A stretch of DNA of 64,000 bases from a virus (Duplodnaviria; Caudoviricetes), in IMG/VR virus record IMGVR_UViG_3300037067_012588. One strand, 5' to 3'. The first letter of the stretch is position 1; each line of letters starts with the position of its first letter. The translations under genes were made by a program, and so were the position numbers. The notes below the pieces were generated by a model. That model was not told the origin of the DNA. It worked only from the letters and a program-made list of their open reading frames with translations, and did not search any database. Positions 3,390 through 7,630 of the stretch are shown here, one piece after another.

Positions 3390-5111
3390 TTAGAAGTTAC
3401 TGCGGATATAATCCATCGGAGGAACATCCTCGCCGCCAACACCCTCAGCCTTGAGCATCATCGCCAACACCGACTCATTGAAACCACCGAGAAGGTTGAG
3501 GCGGTTGTCCTTCTCGCAGAACGGGGTGTCGCCGTAACCCATCACGTTGATGCTGTGCAGCCACGTCTCCTTTGCACCCTCAATCCGCTTGAACTTCTTC
3601 CACTCATCGGCGCAGTTCTCGCTGCCCCAGCCGCTGTTCCAAGCCTGACCATCGCTCAGAATAATCAAGCGGTCGGGAACGTTCTTCTCCGAAATGAGCT
3701 TCTGGATAACCTTGTGCGTGTTCGTTGCACCACCATGATTGCCAACGTTCTTGGCGATGTTCATCATGGTCATGTGCTTCGTGATGTTGACCACACGAAC
3801 ATCATTGCTGAATGCGTAAAACTCAACCTCATCACCACGCCGAGCACAAATCGCACCGAGAGCACAAGCCGCATTGAACGCTGACAAAGAGGACATCTGA
3901 GAAATTGGCGTAGACATTGATCCAGAGTCATCAACCGCAACAATCGTGTGACCAGGCATCTTCGGGCAATTCTCGATAGCCGTCTCCGTCGCATTCTCAA
4001 CAGCCTCAAGCAACTTGGAAATATCAACACCACCTCCAAGCTTCGTCAGCTCGTTGTAAGCCGCAAGGTAACGGAACGGAAGCTGCTTGGACTTCCGAAC
4101 CTCATCGGCATTGGACAACTTCTCATACACCTTCTTGATAGTGTCCTTGCCAACACCAGCCTGAACAAGGTTCCGAAGATTGCGAAGCATTGCCATGTAG
4201 CCAACAAGGTCCTCGTCAATCAGGAACTCCCACACAGCCTTCTTGCCAGTCTCGCTCTTGCCAAACTGCGACAAGAGAACCTCCCAGTTGACGCTGGACT
4301 CCTTCGCCAACACACGAGCCTTGTCATCGAACGTATCCATCTTCGCCAGCATAGAACGCTTCATGGCAACAGGAGTCTCAGCACAAACAACGCCCGTCTT
4401 GAAATACGCCGACAAAGCGTTCGACATCGGCCAGCCCTTCTCACGAGGCAACCAACCCAGCACGTTGCCCCATGTCGGGAAGTCCTTGCCGTCATACTTC
4501 ATCAACGCAGCCTCGCCAATCTGCGACAAACGATTCGACAAACCAGTTGCAAGAGCATTCGACAGACACTTCATGCCGAACAGGTAACGATGCAACATCA
4601 AGCACGTCTTGATCTCGTCAGGACGCTTCACGATGAGGGGAACGTACTTCTTGACATACGGCTTCGTTGCCTCGATACGAGAAGCCAGCACGAGGAAAAC
4701 CTGCGGAGTCAAACGGATATTGCCCTCATTCCGCAGCCAGTTGGCAAGAGCGAGCAGGTCACGAGGATTCTTGCCCTGCGCAACATCGACAGCGGTGGCG
4801 ATAATCTCCTTCGCCACATCATCCAGCTCATCACAGTTGGCGAACTTCGCAGCCTTCGCCTCGTTCAGACGCAGACGCTCAGCGAGCTTTCCGAACTTGC
4901 CAGAAGCAAGACGGGTCGGGCGACAGCTATCGCCATTGTAATAGCGAGGCTCGGCGAAAAACGAACCACCCGTCATGGTCAGCAACTTAACCGCAGGGTC
5001 GGAAATGTCAAACGCAACACCCCCTGCACGGTTGACAGTCGCATCCTTGCTCTCAGACGGCTTGGAAGTCCGAACGAATGAAGCCTTCATCTTGTTGCTC
5101 ATAGTACCCAT
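3390..5111 (-). CDS. rsr: Ro60/Rsr-like TROVE-domain RNA-binding protein with C-terminal vWA domain
   Basis: NRAGGVAF, LRNEGNIR, YMAMLRNLRN, KSKQLPFRYLAAY, vWA MIDAS DDSGSM, GGATN, LIILSDGQ; start follows RBS GAGGAGG. Confidence 0.93.
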   Translation of the reverse strand: MGTMSNKMKASFVRTSKPSESKDATVNRAGGVAFDISDPAVKLLTMTGGSFFAEPRYYNGDSCRPTRLASGKFGKLAERLRLNEAKAAKFANCDELDDVAKEIIATAVDVAQGKNPRDLLALANWLRNEGNIRLTPQVFLVLASRIEATKPYVKKYVPLIVKRPDEIKTCLMLHRYLFGMKCLSNALATGLSNRLSQIGEAALMKYDGKDFPTWGNVLGWLPREKGWPMSNALSAYFKTGVVCAETPVAMKRSMLAKMDTFDDKARVLAKESSVNWEVLLSQFGKSETGKKAVWEFLIDEDLVGYMAMLRNLRNLVQAGVGKDTIKKVYEKLSNADEVRKSKQLPFRYLAAYNELTKLGGGVDISKLLEAVENATETAIENCPKMPGHTIVAVDDSGSMSTPISQMSSLSAFNAACALGAICARRGDEVEFYAFSNDVRVVNITKHMTMMNIAKNVGNHGGATNTHKVIQKLISEKNVPDRLIILSDGQAWNSGWGSENCADEWKKFKRIEGAKETWLHSINVMGYGDTPFCEKDNRLNLLGGFNESVLAMMLKAEGVGGEDVPPMDYIRSNF

Positions 5112-5133
5112 AGCTTTTACCTCCTCATTTTGT

Positions 5134-5199
5134 CGCACCGTTTTAGTGCGGAAGTGCGGAGAGACATTCCCCGCCAAAGACTCTCCAACACGGAGAGCC
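5134..5199 (-). promoter_or_regulatory. Three consecutive hairpins in the rsr 5' leader
   Basis: GGCTCTCC/GGAGAGTC, GCGGGGA/TCTCCGC, CGCACT/GGTGCG immediately before the RBS. Confidence 0.45.
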
Positions 5200-5208
5200 G
5201 TTTCTATC

Positions 5209-6099
5209 TCATCGTCCAGTCGTGGAAAAATTCAGGAAATGTTCGAAAATTTCCCACTTCTGCCCAACAGGCGGACGAAAACACTCATTCATCGGTCTTT
5301 GCCACCACTTGAACCCAGCAATATCGTGCAAAACCTTTTGCTGCTTACCCCTTCGACCTTGAACAAATAACTTTCCATCCGAGGTCTTTTTGTTTATGAA
5401 AAATGGACCATTAAAATGAGCATCAGCCCACTCAGCGCCAGACAAATATAAAACCTCTTTACCGAGTGCCGCAACGCATCCAACCAAATGTGCTTCATCT
5501 CCGAGCCCAACAAACGGCAGCGGAGAGTCTGCCCTTGCATACAACGCAAATTTTGATGTAAACGCCCACGCAGCAACCAAGTCCCAACTTGCAGAAACAT
5601 CCAAACACACGATTGATGACACAAACCAATCAATCTTTTTACCCACCAAGCTTTTTCCGTATTGCGCCCACTTCTCGGAAAAAACTATCTCGCCAGTTGT
5701 CGCCCCAGAAGGGTCAATCAGAAGCGCCTCATCCTTTTCAACCCAACGAGGAACAACGACATATCCCTGCTCCGCAGCCTCAAACGCCTCATCAATCCTG
5801 TCTGTCAAGACACTATCTGAATCTATCCAACAGACGATTCTTGCAATCTCCGATGAAAAGACAAAACAGCTTTGCTTTATCTGCCATGCCTGCTCTCGTG
5901 TTTCACATAACTTGCACGGAATTATTCCACCGAACGTAGGATGTTTGGTTATTTCATCAACTTGATCTTTGGTCAATCCTACATCCATAACAACAACAGG
6001 AATACTTCTACCGTAATAGATATAGACGCTGTTCATCAACGCCCGAAGTCCGAGAAAATATCCAGCATCTGACATCGTTACAAAGATACGGTCAAGCAA
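5209..6099 (-). CDS. GT-A fold glycosyltransferase (GT8-like)
   Basis: FVTMSDAGYFLGLRALMNSV, VVMDVGL, DxD motif WIDSD. Confidence 0.7.
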   Translation of the reverse strand: MLDRIFVTMSDAGYFLGLRALMNSVYIYYGRSIPVVVMDVGLTKDQVDEITKHPTFGGIIPCKLCETREQAWQIKQSCFVFSSEIARIVCWIDSDSVLTDRIDEAFEAAEQGYVVVPRWVEKDEALLIDPSGATTGEIVFSEKWAQYGKSLVGKKIDWFVSSIVCLDVSASWDLVAAWAFTSKFALYARADSPLPFVGLGDEAHLVGCVAALGKEVLYLSGAEWADAHFNGPFFINKKTSDGKLFVQGRRGKQQKVLHDIAGFKWWQRPMNECFRPPVGQKWEIFEHFLNFSTTGR

Positions 6100-6185
6100 G
6101 ACACTTCTCCAAAAAATCAGGACTGCTCAAAGGCAGCCCCAATACAAACCACTCTTACAGCCAGAAGGCATGGTGGATGTTTTTA

Positions 6186-6274
6186 TGGTAGCGGGGGCAG
6201 GGTTCGAACCTGCGCAAGCCTTATTAGGGTCTCCAGCTTATGAGGCTGACGAGTTACCACTTCTCCACCCCGCA
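6186..6274 (-). tRNA. tRNA-Met(CAT), initiator-like acceptor stem, long variable arm
   Basis: TGCGGGG...CCCCGCT-A-CCA, anticodon loop CTCATAA, T arm GCAGG-TTCGAAC-CCTGC, encoded CCA. Confidence 0.9.
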
Positions 6275-6280
6275 ATGTTG

Positions 6281-6394
6281 TTACTGCTTGTCTTTTTTCG
6301 CCTTCTTTGTGACCTTTGCTTCGTTCGAAGCCATAACCTTCTTCGACTTCTTCGATGCAACGGGTACTACTGTTCCCGTAATTTTCTTCGACAC
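6281..6394 (-). CDS. Small Lys-rich basic peptide (37 aa)
   Basis: GTG start after AAGGAAG; MSKKITGTVVPVASKKSKKVMASNEAKVTKKAKKDKQ; sits between ncRNAs. Confidence 0.55.
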   Translation of the reverse strand: MSKKITGTVVPVASKKSKKVMASNEAKVTKKAKKDKQ

Positions 6395-6421
6395 GTTTGT
6401 CTTCCTTTTGTAAGAAAAAAT

Positions 6422-6551
6422 CGACGCCAAAATTCGGCAAGGGCTATGTACTGCGGAATCGAACCGCTCCTCTGGGTTTAACGCCCAGCGTGCGCCATCA
6501 CACTCAGTCCTCAATCATGGTGGGGAAGTAACCCATGCCTGAAGAGCGTCG
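6422..6551 (-). ncRNA. Y-RNA-like unit 3, enclosing a tRNA-like domain
   Basis: Stems CGACGCT/GGCGTCG and GGCATGGG/CCCTTGCC, motif GGGTTACTTC, internal cloverleaf with a GGTTCGATTCC T loop; near rsr. Confidence 0.75.
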
Positions 6552-6562
6552 TAAAATAATAC

Positions 6563-6623
6563 TTCCGCCAAAAGGCGTGACAGGACTTTTTTCATAGAAG
6601 TAACCCATCACTGAAGAGCGGAA
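6563..6623 (-). ncRNA. Y-RNA-like unit 2 (minimal, stem only)
   Basis: Stems TTCCGCT/GGCGGAA and GTGATGGG/CCTGTCAC, motif GGGTTACTTC. Confidence 0.7.
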
Positions 6624-6632
6624 AAAGAACAC

Positions 6633-6926
6633 ACTCGATACCAATATGTTCTGACTAAGGCAACCGAACCCACAAGCCCATTCTGTTTGGGCGGCCGGTC
6701 GGGACCCTTTCGTCCCATGTCATTGAGCCTTTCCTCAAAGTCAACTGGACTTATCTCTTCCCAGCGGTCAGGGCTACTCCCAAGCCCATCAGCATGTCTT
6801 CTTTTTTTCCATGCAGTCACAGCTCTTTTGTATCACGATAAACCATCCATCGAACTGTCATAGCGGCTCACCGTATATCTTGTCTGAGTCTAGTAAGAAG
6901 TATCCCTAGTCACAAGCGTACCGAGC
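6633..6926 (-). ncRNA. Y-RNA-like unit 1 (about 290 nt, multi-hairpin inner domain)
   Basis: Stems CTCGGTAC/GTATCGAG and GACTAGGG/CCTTAGTC, motif GGGATACTTC, at least six internal hairpins. Confidence 0.7.
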
Positions 6927-6930
6927 TTAA

Positions 6931-6968
6931 TTTTCAAAGAGCTTTTCGTCGGCGACTATGGCACGACG
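6931..6968 (-). promoter_or_regulatory. boxB-like hairpin plus boxA-like antitermination element
   Basis: CGTCG/CGACG hairpin followed by GCTCTTTGAAAA, which resembles rrn boxA (TGCTCTTTAACA). Confidence 0.5.
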
Positions 6969-6983
6969 CTGTATTTCTGTCTT

Positions 6984-7011
6984 ACTATACGATCAAGAAC
7001 CCACAAATCAA
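6984..7011 (-). promoter_or_regulatory. Sigma70-type promoter of the ncRNA/tRNA operon
   Basis: TTGATT-N16-TATAGT with an upstream AT-rich tract. Confidence 0.55.
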
Positions 7012-7027
7012 CAAAAAAAATATTTTT

Positions 7028-7630
7028 TTACAGTACAACGCATTTGGCATCCTCAATCAACTCGTCGTTTCGAATCCCCTTTGGACACTTGTACCAAGAT
7101 GGAACACATCGTTTTGAATCCCGTGGGGTGTTGATAATCTTCCAAGTATTTCCAGCATTGATATTCGACACCCAAATACATTCTTTGAGTGGGACTGCGT
7201 AAAATGGTTCCTTAACACGCAATCCAGAGACTGGGTCCCTACACAGACGTGTAACAACTTCTGAACTTCGAATAACATCAAGTGTTGTCACAGAGAACAT
7301 ATTGAGGTTGTTGTTGAGTGAAAAATAATACTTCGACTCACTCTCTGGACCTTTCCTTTCGGGAACCCCAACATCTTCGTATTTGAATTCAAAATTAAAC
7401 CATCCTTCCCTCACCTCAACCTCTATAAAATGTGACTCTTTCAAAATCTTGTCAAAAATCAAAAAGTCTCCTTTTTTGAATTTTTCTTTTTGACTTGAAA
7501 GAACCGTCTTTAGCATATATTTGTTTGGAAACATGTTTGTCAAATAATTAGACGCAGCAACTACTCCCCTTGCGTTGTTCTTCAGATAAGAAGCATAGTT
7601 AAAGCTTCTGTTCCTTGCTTGTGCTGTCAT
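7028..7630 (-). CDS. Hypothetical protein
   Basis: MTAQARN start after GGAGG. Confidence 0.7.
   Translation of the reverse strand: MTAQARNRSFNYASYLKNNARGVVAASNYLTNMFPNKYMLKTVLSSQKEKFKKGDFLIFDKILKESHFIEVEVREGWFNFEFKYEDVGVPERKGPESESKYYFSLNNNLNMFSVTTLDVIRSSEVVTRLCRDPVSGLRVKEPFYAVPLKECIWVSNINAGNTWKIINTPRDSKRCVPSWYKCPKGIRNDELIEDAKCVVL

What the first reader, a model, noticed from the sequence alone, without database searches (positions are those of the whole stretch)
6665..6895. Inner domain of the long Y-like RNA is a string of GGA-containing hairpins, resembling a CsrB/RsmZ sponge
Seen (minus strand): successive hairpins GCATG-GAAAAAAAGAAGA-CATGC, GGGCT-TGGGAGT-AGCCC, CTGG-GAAGAGATAAGT-CCAG, TTGAG-GAAAGG-CTCAA, GGGAC-GAAAGG-GTCCC and GCCCA-AACAGAA-TGGGC, with GGA recurring about six times at roughly 20-30 nt spacing, mostly at or in loops. 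Established: CsrA/RsmA binds repeated GGA hairpin loops. Inference: a Ro-stabilised sponge for CsrA or another purine-loop-binding protein.
Basis: inference. Interest (0 to 1): 0.7.

Follow-up and report, generated by a model that had tools for sequence, protein, structure and literature searches.

The report
Phage Y-like RNA with hairpin array
A huge uncultured phage encodes, next to its Ro60 gene, a roughly 290-base RNA whose core is a string of short hairpins of a type also found in transfer-messenger RNAs; there is no evidence that it soaks up the regulator CsrA.

Summary
The hairpins are real, at the stated coordinates, and they are conserved RNA structure. In two related phages the stems change by compensating substitutions while the loops and linkers stay the same.

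The GGA count is not special: 6 observed against 8.0±1.9 in shuffles. The conserved unit is a UGAC linker, a 4-6 bp stem and a GAAAGA-type hexaloop. GGA mostly arises where the stem's last G meets the loop's GA.

The array sits inside a closing stem and internal loop (CUUCAG … UUACUUC … AUUAUUGG). This element recurs upstream of Ro60/Rsr in 38 of the 98 huge-phage loci scanned. It behaves as a Y-RNA-like scaffold with swappable inner domains.

The same hairpin units build the body of these phages' own tmRNAs. They also occur in many bacterial tmRNAs, in rRNA leaders, and in 5′ leaders of phage scaffold genes.

Five bacteria that carry the unit, and three related phage records, have no csrA. 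No Rfam CsrB/Rsm or Y RNA model matches.

Best reading: a new variant of a phage Y RNA with a tmRNA-type tandem-hairpin effector module. Its partner is unknown.

The parts
6984..7011 (-). Sigma-70-like promoter (TTGATT, 16 nt spacer, TATAGT) upstream of the RNA cluster
   Evidence: Consensus scan. This is a pattern match only.
6931..6941 (-). CTCTTTGAAAA motif just 5' of the long RNA. Similar words (TTCTTTGACAAA and others) precede the homologous RNAs.
   Evidence: Read from sequences. Role unknown.
6634..6925 (-). The whole long Y-like RNA (module 1), from the 5' half of the basal stem to its 3' half
6918..6925 (-). Basal stem, 5' half (CTCGGTAC). It pairs with 6641-6634.
   Evidence: Helix 1: 96.7% of cells paired, 4 compensatory pairs.
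6904..6911 (-). Upper stem, 5' half (GACTAGGG). It pairs with 6660-6653. The homolog L010 has TGTCGGGG/CCTCGGCA.
   Evidence: helix 3.
6897..6903 (-). Invariant ATACTTC, the family signature that follows the upper stem
6836..6873 (-). 5' sub-domain hairpin of the inner domain
   Evidence: helices 4-5, weaker support.
6792..6814 (-). Unit 1: GCATG-GAAAAAAAGAAGA-CATGC. Orthologous hairpins have GCGTG/CACGC, GTATG/CATAC or GTGTG/CACAC stems with GGAAGA/GAGAGA/GATAGA loops.
6771..6787 (-). Unit 2: GGGCT-TGGGAGT-AGCCC
   Evidence: helices 7-8.
6745..6765 (-). Unit 3: GCTGG-GAAGAGATAAGT-CCAG(T)
   Evidence: helix 9: 100% paired, 4 compensatory pairs.
6723..6738 (-). Unit 4: TTGAG-GAAAGG-CTCAA, flanked by TGAC linkers
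   Evidence: helix 10. Homologous to the L118 unit TTGAG…CTCAA.
6701..6716 (-). Unit 5: GGGAC-GAAAGG-GTCCC
   Evidence: helix 11: 100% paired, 3 compensatory pairs.
6676..6692 (-). Terminal hairpin of the inner domain: GCCCA-AACAGAA-TGGGC
   Evidence: helix 12.
6653..6660 (-). Upper stem, 3' half (CCTTAGTC)
6634..6641 (-). Basal stem, 3' half (GTATCGAG), preceded by the conserved ..ATATTGG
6565..6622 (-). Module 2: minimal Y-like RNA. Basal stem CCGC/GCGG, upper stem GTGATGGG/CCTGTCAC, 19-nt apical loop.
6422..6551 (-). Module 3: Y-like stem (CGACGC/GCGTCG; GGCATGGG/CCCTTGCC) enclosing a tRNA-like element at 6514-6444
   Evidence: (tRNA-Sec model, 23.8 bits, below threshold).
3390..5102 (-). 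Ro60/Rsr gene (TROVE plus vWA domains). The 570-aa form equals P0001.

Best explanation
The region is the inner (effector) domain of a roughly 290-nt non-coding RNA. It is the first of three tandem Y-RNA-like modules transcribed upstream of a huge phage's Ro60/Rsr gene.

All three modules share one scaffold:
- a basal stem;
- an asymmetric internal loop with conserved CUUCAG (CUUGU in module 1) on the 5' side and (A)UUAUUGG on the 3' side;
- an upper stem ending in GGG;
- an invariant (U/A)UACUUC.

This scaffold is the likely Rsr-binding handle. Its apical part is swappable. In this RNA it is a 5' hairpin, then five tandem units (UGAC linker, 4-6 bp stem, GAAAG-type purine loop), then a terminal hairpin.

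These units are the same kind that form the ring-shaped body, in place of pseudoknots 2-4, of these phages' own tmRNAs and of many bacterial tmRNAs. The stems drift freely while the loops and linkers are held, so the units most likely act as repeated docking sites rather than filler.

Proposed mechanism: Rsr holds the stem, and the array tethers the particle to a conserved host component that recognises such units. Candidates are an S1/KH-domain protein (ribosomal protein S1, or the exoribonucleases PNPase and RNase R) or the small ribosomal subunit. This follows the known Ro60-Y RNA-PNPase particles.

Shown: the anatomy, the conservation, the linkage to Rsr and the shared unit. Inferred: Rsr binding, the docking role and the partner's identity. 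CsrA is not the favoured partner.
For: Context:
- The Rsr gene (TROVE plus vWA_Ro60) lies downstream on the same strand. A CCA-adding/poly(A) polymerase-HD enzyme and a 2H phosphoesterase are nearby.

Scaffold family:
- 58 parsed modules in 38 of the 98 loci scanned (the window plus 97 fetched loci, 96 of them Rsr-anchored), always upstream of Rsr on its strand.
- An independent DNA-pattern scan found two non-coding sites, both beside Rsr. One is in a complete 200.9-kb phage.
- In 22 distinct minimal modules, 85.7% of cells are paired against 56.0±2.1% in shuffles (0/500). The basal helix, which was not used to select the modules, has 6 of 7 pairs with compensatory change.

Inner domain:
- WIN/L010/L118 alignment: 68 pairs, 33 compensatory, 87.1% paired against 73.5±2.1% (0/500).
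- Ten distinct array-type RNAs across Rsr proteins 45-75% identical.

Shared unit:
- Stretches of 17-22 nt are identical between Y-like arrays and phage tmRNAs.
- The tmRNA of the closest large relative carries TGAC-GGCGT-CAAAGA-ACGC, TGAC-…-GAAAGT-… units after its tag ORF.
- 77 of 239 matches to a two-unit pattern lie inside ARAGORN-called tmRNAs.

Precedent:
- Ro60-Y RNA-PNPase complexes, including one from a Thermus phage (PMC12135203; PMC4201824).
- Ribosomal protein S1 contacts the tmRNA pseudoknot region (PMC1168896).
Against: - No expression or binding data exist. No RNA-seq run holding this DNA was listed.
- The scaffold lacks the published Ro-binding words (GGUCCGA; GNCGAA(N)G; CGAA), and no Rfam Y RNA model matches. 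Rsr binding therefore rests on gene linkage and architecture only.
- The long-RNA alignment has just three sequences, and the tested structure was derived from it.
- The minimal modules were selected partly by upper-stem pairing.
- The closest Rsr relatives (L114, L117; 72-75% identity) carry a different long inner domain, so the array is dispensable for the system.
- The unit also occurs in mRNA leaders and rRNA leaders, so it may be a generic stabilising or folding element with no specific partner.
Confidence: 0.6

Rival explanations
1. CsrA/RsmA sponge. The GGA-bearing hairpins would sequester host CsrA dimers, as CsrB and RsmZ do, with Rsr stabilising the RNA.
For: - Five or six hairpins at 20-30 nt spacing.
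- 22 of 28 canonical units in ten homologs carry GGA at the 5' edge of the loop (tally in notes).
- The host is unknown and could encode CsrA.
Against: - GGA is not enriched (6 against 8.0±1.9).
- Only 7 of 28 units have all three bases unpaired. The conserved word is G-GAAAGA-C plus UGAC, not A(N)GGA.
- No CsrB/CsrC/Rsm family match at E≤10.
- The same unit is common in tmRNAs and other RNAs of Acidimicrobiales, Rhodobacteraceae and a Lachnospiraceae genome, and all five genomes tested lack csrA.
- csrA is absent from three related phage records.
Confidence: 0.04
2. Structural filler or stabiliser. The units are simply very stable, independently folding hairpins. They would act as spacers or as blocks to nucleases, and here they would only enlarge and protect the RNA, with no specific ligand.
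For: - The units occur in very different RNAs: tmRNA bodies, rRNA leaders and spacers, between phage tRNAs, and in 5' leaders of phage scaffold genes.
- tmRNA pseudoknots are reported to be interchangeable (PMC1168896).
- The close relatives L114 and L117 swap the array for another domain.
Against: Loop and linker sequences are conserved across phyla while the stems drift. A pure spacer would not need that.
Confidence: 0.2
3. Small-subunit or anti-Shine-Dalgarno ligand. The GAAAG(G/A) loops resemble the extended Shine-Dalgarno word AGAAAGGAGG. They could pair with the CCUCCUUUCU 3' tail of 16S rRNA, making the array a 30S docking or standby element.
For: - In phage leaders the last unit abuts a GAAAGGAGG ribosome-binding site directly upstream of the start codon of a scaffold-like ORF.
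- The window's loops are GAAAGG.
- tmRNA bodies sit on the 30S subunit (established knowledge; PMC1168896).
Against: - The UGAC linker is not explained.
- Pairing would be only about 5 nt.
- The 16S tail is nearly invariant, so no covariation test is possible.
- rRNA-leader and tRNA-spacer contexts do not need ribosome recruitment.
Confidence: 0.1
4. Not a Ro partner at all. The three modules would be processed leader or spacer elements of a stable-RNA operon (Y-like modules, small ORF, tRNA-Met) that merely sits upstream of rsr.
For: - The cluster is followed by a conserved small lysine-rich ORF and tRNA-Met before rsr.
- Relatives place tmRNA and tRNAs in the same interval.
Against: The stem and internal-loop signature was found only next to Rsr in two independent searches. 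Its stem-internal loop-stem architecture is that of Y RNAs.
Confidence: 0.06

Closest known systems
Bacterial and phage Y RNAs (Yrn1, YrlA/YrlB; Yrl1/Yrl2 of Thermus phage phiLo)
   Same: - Encoded within about 2 kb upstream of Ro60/Rsr on the same strand, often in several copies.
- The 5' and 3' ends form a stem interrupted by a conserved internal loop.
- The apical part is a separate effector module. One sister module here is tRNA-like, as in YrlA.
   Different: - The conserved words are CUUCAG / UUACUUC / AUUAUUGG, not GGUCCGA, GNCGAA(N)G or CGAA.
- No Rfam Y RNA model matches.
- This RNA is about 290 nt, against 80-130 nt for known Y RNAs.
- Its effector module is a tandem hairpin array, not a tRNA mimic.
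tmRNA body (pseudoknot 2-4 region), as found in these phages and in Acidimicrobiia and other Actinomycetota
   Same: - The same repeated unit (UGAC linker, short stem closed by G-C, GAAAGA-type hexaloop), with 17-22 nt identical stretches in some pairs.
- The array is closed into a ring by a long helix.
   Different: - No tRNA-like acceptor/T-arm domain, no CCA end and no tag reading frame.
- Neither ARAGORN nor Rfam calls a tmRNA here.
CsrB/CsrC/RsmX/Y/Z sponges for CsrA
   Same: Multiple short hairpins with purine-rich loops at roughly 20-30 nt spacing. Many units contain the letters GGA.
   Different: - GGA sits at the stem/loop junction and is not enriched.
- There is no A(N)GGA loop consensus and no family match.
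- The unit thrives in csrA-less bacteria.
Lambdoid boxB (nut) hairpins and the ANTAR dual-hexaloop motif
   Same: Short stems capped by purine-rich 5-6 nt loops (boxB GAAAA/GAAGA) or tandem hexaloop hairpins (ANTAR), read by a protein. This comparison is from memory and is a lead only.
   Different: - boxB is single and has a pentaloop.
- ANTAR loops conserve A1 and G4, and come as a pair that overlaps a terminator.
- Neither has UGAC linkers or arrays of 5-6 units.
- Not tested here.

Membership tests
CsrA-sequestering sRNA (CsrB/RsmZ type) | Many GGA motifs, more than chance, presented unpaired in hairpin loops (A(N)GGA) | tested here: not met
   6 GGA against 8.0±1.9 in shuffles. One lies wholly in a loop, three at the junction and two in stems. 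In 28 homologous units, 7 have GGA in the loop, 15 at the junction and 6 have none.
CsrA-sequestering sRNA (CsrB/RsmZ type) | Similarity to a curated sponge family | tested here: not met
   Rfam 15: no match at the gathering score or at E≤10 on 5800-7400.
CsrA-sequestering sRNA (CsrB/RsmZ type) | CsrA present in the phage or its host | tested here: inconclusive
   PF02599 is absent from 3 related phage records and from 5 bacterial genomes that carry the same hairpin unit. The host of this phage is unknown and no genome is held for the window.
CsrA-sequestering sRNA (CsrB/RsmZ type) | Binds CsrA | not testable with these tools
   Needs EMSA or co-purification.
Y RNA (Ro60/Rsr partner) | Encoded close to Ro60/Rsr on the same strand | tested here: met
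Y RNA (Ro60/Rsr partner) | 5' and 3' ends form a stem with a conserved internal loop or bulge, with a separate apical module | tested here: met
Y RNA (Ro60/Rsr partner) | Published Ro-binding sequence (GGUCCGA, GNCGAA(N)G or CGAA) or a match to an Rfam Y RNA model | tested here: not met
   The conserved words here are CUUCAG/UUACUUC. No Rfam hit. Motifs taken from PMC4201824 and PMC12135203.
Y RNA (Ro60/Rsr partner) | Physically bound by Ro60/Rsr | not testable with these tools
   No RNA or RNP data. No RNA run was listed as a holder.
tmRNA | tRNA-like acceptor/T-arm domain with a CCA end, plus a tag reading frame | tested here: not met
   ARAGORN and Rfam find no tmRNA in the window.
tmRNA | Body built of UGAC-hairpin-GAAAGA units (a lineage-specific feature) | tested here: met

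The most novel reading that the evidence does not exclude
The UGAC-stem-GAAAGA-stem unit is an undescribed, cross-phylum RNA recognition module read by one conserved ribosome-associated or S1/KH-domain factor. It is used in tmRNA bodies, rRNA leaders and phage late-gene leaders. Huge phages have grafted it onto a Ro60-binding scaffold, beside a tRNA-like sister module, to steer Ro60 particles to that factor or to ribosomes.
Probability: 0.2. Interest if true: 0.8.

Novelty: new variant of a known kind. Interest (0 to 1): 0.6.

Why it matters
Y RNAs are thought to work as adaptors: one end holds Ro60 and the other chooses the partner. So far the only well-described bacterial effector module is a tRNA mimic.

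This locus shows a phage lineage that keeps one Ro-side scaffold and swaps the other end. The alternatives seen are a minimal loop, a tRNA-like fold, a tmRNA-type hairpin array and other folds. That gives a natural series for testing the adaptor model.

It also exposes a short tandem-hairpin unit, absent from Rfam, that recurs in tmRNAs, rRNA leaders and phage late-gene leaders. Finding its ligand could explain features of all of these RNAs.

The practical message for the scan is negative: a few GGA triplets in a purine-rich RNA are not evidence of a CsrA sponge.

Tried and rejected
- **Phage DNA similarity:** blastn of the intergenic region against 50,697 phage records gave no match.
- **Whole genome of the window:** not held.
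- **Strict motif scan:** GGGATACTTC…GACTCAGACA hit three small phage contigs (L002-L004) at the start of an ORF. I judged this chance or unrelated.
- **Coding hits:** L007-L009 hits to the second motif lie in coding sequence, so they were rejected.
- **Cultured relatives:** none has an Rsr above 30% identity, so there is no host clue.
- **Sequencing runs:** no RNA holder was listed. The DNA holders are groundwater and landfill metagenomes, so I did not lay reads.
- **Literature search by sequence words:** returned only primer lists.
- **Earlier scan notes by words:** nothing found.
- **Annual Review on bacterial Ro60 (PMC10870794):** not held.
- **Degenerate or permuted tmRNA:** considered and rejected. 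There is no acceptor/T-arm domain and no tag frame, and ARAGORN is negative.
- **Small protein gene:** considered and rejected. No stop-free frame is shared among the homologs, and the substitution pattern fits RNA stems.
- **Pseudoknots between loops and UGAC linkers:** considered and rejected. There is no complementarity.
- **Pair statistics on units picked by their pairing:** this would be circular, so I did not use them.

Full report
**Setting**

The window is part of a huge uncultured phage. Every gene is on the minus strand. The cluster entry for its Rsr protein gives a contig of 344,634 bp. The nearest large relative is a 253-kb IMG/VR contig.

At 3390-5177 (−) lies a Ro60/Rsr gene with TROVE and vWA_Ro60 domains. 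Nearby are a CCA-adding/poly(A) polymerase with an HD domain, a 2H phosphoesterase and ClpP.

The 0.9-kb gap at 6100-7027 has no convincing gene. It holds tRNA-Met (6186-6274), a sub-threshold tRNA-like element (6444-6514, 23.8 bits) and the region in question. No Rfam family for Y RNA, CsrB/Rsm, GOLLD, ROOL or tmRNA matches, even at E≤10.

**The observation**

All six hairpins are present exactly as written (coordinates).

The triplet count is not remarkable. There are 6 GGA in 231 nt, against 8.0±1.9 in dinucleotide-preserving shuffles, and the density is about that of the whole strand. One GGA is fully in a loop, three have the first G paired at the stem/loop junction, and two are inside stems.

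The region folds somewhat better than shuffles (z = −2.15). The real support comes from relatives.

**Homologs and structure**

Searching with the Rsr protein and an Rsr alignment gave 16 viral and 80 metagenomic loci. Three exact-protein look-ups added closer relatives.

Two relatives align along the whole RNA: L010 (Rsr 75% identical) and L118 (70% identical).
- RNAalifold predicts 68 pairs, 32 of them with compensatory change.
- For that structure, 87.1% of cells are standard pairs, against 73.5±2.1% in shuffles (0/500) and 34-45% when partners are slid.
- 33 pairs change on both sides, against 14.3±2.8 in shuffles.
- The three best-aligned units (helices 9-11) are 93-100% paired, with 2-4 compensatory pairs each.

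Caveats: there are only three sequences, and the structure was derived from the same alignment.

**The enclosing scaffold**

The array is closed by two helices, CTCGGTAC/GTATCGAG and GACTAGGG/CCTTAGTC. They are separated by an internal loop and followed by an invariant ATACTTC.

The same design recurs twice more just downstream: 6622-6565 with a 19-nt apical loop, and 6551-6422 enclosing the tRNA-like element.

A simple parser found 58 such modules in 38 of the 98 loci scanned (the window, L006 and the 96 Rsr-anchored loci L010-L105). All lie upstream of Rsr on its strand.

In 22 distinct minimal modules:
- CUUCAG, (U/A)UACUUC and AUUAUUGG are conserved.
- 13 of 14 pairs show compensatory change.
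- 85.7% of cells are paired, against 56.0±2.1% in shuffles (0/500).
- The upper helix was used in selecting the modules. The basal helix was not, and it is still 84% paired with 6 of 7 compensatory pairs.

An independent DNA-pattern scan of IMG/VR returned two non-coding sites, both directly upstream of an Rsr gene. One is in a complete 200.9-kb phage.

This meets the operational criterion that Chen et al. used for bacterial Y RNAs: within 4 kb of Ro60 on the same strand (PMC4201824). The stem-internal loop-stem architecture also fits. The published Ro-contact words (GGUCCGA; GNCGAA(N)G; CGAA in Thermus phage phiLo, PMC12135203) are absent. I therefore call it Y-like rather than a member of the described families.

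**What the inner domain is made of**

Ten distinct long modules carry the same kind of array: the window, L010, L118, L013, L014, L016, L034, L036, L041 and L046.

Each array has five or six units. A unit is a UGAC (or UGG) linker, a 4-6 bp stem usually closed by G-C, and a hexaloop: GAAAGA, GGAAGA, GAGAGA, GATAGA, GAAAGG or CAAAGA.

One hairpin is plainly orthologous across the set. Its stem is GCATG/CATGC in the window and GCGTG/CACGC, GTATG/CATAC or GTGTG/CACAC elsewhere.

L118 is the cleanest case. Five of its six units read TGAC(C)-stem-GAAAGA-stem, and the sixth has the longer loop GGAATAGAA.

Of 28 canonical units, 7 have GGA wholly in the loop, 15 have it at the junction and 6 have none there. 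The conserved word is G-GAAAGA-C, of which GGA is a by-product.

**The link to tmRNA and beyond**

Several relatives encode a tmRNA just upstream of the Y-like RNAs (Rfam 58-117 bits). The closest large relative encodes one elsewhere on its contig (141 bits).

Between the tag reading frame and the 3' tRNA-like end, these tmRNAs contain the same units. Stretches of 17-22 nt are identical to units of the Y-like arrays.

- 167 of 239 matches have at least two hairpin-forming units.
- 77 matches lie inside ARAGORN-called tmRNAs, mostly of Acidimicrobiia and other Actinomycetota.
- One lies about 400 nt upstream of a 16S gene and one in a 16S-23S spacer. Others lie between phage tRNAs, or directly before the ribosome-binding site of phage ORFs that begin …NLQLFA/NLRLFDGEGG…, which look like scaffold proteins.
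- Rfam has no family for these arrays.

The pattern was designed from the unit, so these numbers describe where canonical units occur. They do not measure how often arrays occur in general.

**The CsrA idea**

PF02599 (CsrA) was not found in three related phage records. It was also not found in five bacterial genomes that carry the unit: two Acidimicrobiales chromosomes, two Rhodobacteraceae isolates and a Lachnospiraceae MAG. The control genomes scored as expected.

Add the lack of GGA enrichment, the junctional position of GGA, the absence of an A(N)GGA consensus and the absence of any sponge-family match. Together these leave little support for CsrA. The host of this phage is unknown, so incidental binding cannot be excluded.

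**Mechanism**

The conservation pattern is free stems with fixed loops and linkers.

The units come from tmRNA bodies. Ribosomal protein S1 is reported to contact that region (PMC1168896), and tmRNA rides on the small subunit.

Known Ro60-Y RNA particles recruit the exoribonuclease PNPase through its KH and S1 domains. A phage Ro60 does this with host PNPase (PMC4201824; PMC12135203).

I therefore favour an adaptor model. Rsr sits on the stem, and the array docks onto an S1/KH-domain protein or the 30S subunit. The tRNA-like sister module may address another partner. This step is inference.

The main rival is that the units are merely robust, nuclease-resistant building blocks. The 72-75% relatives L114 and L117 replace the array with a different fold. 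This shows that the modules are exchangeable.

**Verdict**

The GGA/CsrA interpretation is not supported. The object is a new variant of a Y-type RNA whose effector module is a tmRNA-type tandem hairpin array, and its partner still has to be found at the bench.

Noticed in passing
L012:131-219; L014:1400-1476: Type-P5 twister ribozyme matches above the gathering score (48.6 and 38.0 bits) in related huge-phage loci, a few kb upstream of Rsr.
   Followed up: no
L016:2958-3369; L017:1603-1971; L012:3063-3470; L013:2398-2836; L034:303-734; L014:1989-2376; L106:1501-1845: Phage-encoded tmRNAs. Most lie directly upstream of the Y-like RNAs and Rsr. Their pseudoknot 2-4 region is replaced by UGAC-hairpin-GAAAGA units.
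   Followed up: partly
L287, L338, L240, L174, L124, L193 and others: Arrays of 2-5 of the same hairpin units fill the 5' leader directly upstream of the ribosome-binding site of phage ORFs that begin …NLQLFA/NLRLFDGEGG… (scaffold-like). No Rfam family covers them.
   Followed up: partly
L201:7150-7270; L190:1767-1794; L127 and L173 near contig ends: The same tandem units occur about 400 nt upstream of a 16S rRNA gene and in a 16S-23S spacer of a Parcubacteria genome. In two Rhodobacteraceae genomes (L127, L173) they lie near contig ends, where the context could not be read.
   Followed up: no
window 6281-6395 (-): A small lysine-rich ORF (about 38 aa, GTG start) between the Y-like cluster and tRNA-Met. 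Similar ORFs sit at the same place in L001, L114 and L117.
   Followed up: no
window 6186-6274 (-); L001:5723-5814: tRNA-Met(CAT) with an unusually long variable region (about 15-19 extra nt). The relative keeps a long form too.
   Followed up: no
L002:321-349; L003:1214-1242; L004:2946-2974: A near-identical 29-nt word (GGGATACTTC…ACTAGACTCAGACAA) occurs at the start of an ORF in three small phage contigs. It is probably chance, but the match runs beyond the searched pattern.
   Followed up: partly
L114:1150-1480; L117:1-100: The closest Rsr relatives (72-75% identity) carry a different long inner domain in the Y-like scaffold. Others (L022, L043, L048, L057; L017; L024, L036 second module) carry further distinct folds, so inner domains are exchanged.
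   Followed up: partly
window 6931-6941 (-): CTCTTTGAAAA precedes the long RNA. Related words (TTCTTTGACAAA, TCTTTGAAAT, TTCTTTAAAAA) precede the homologous RNAs. It could be a promoter or a processing signal.
   Followed up: no
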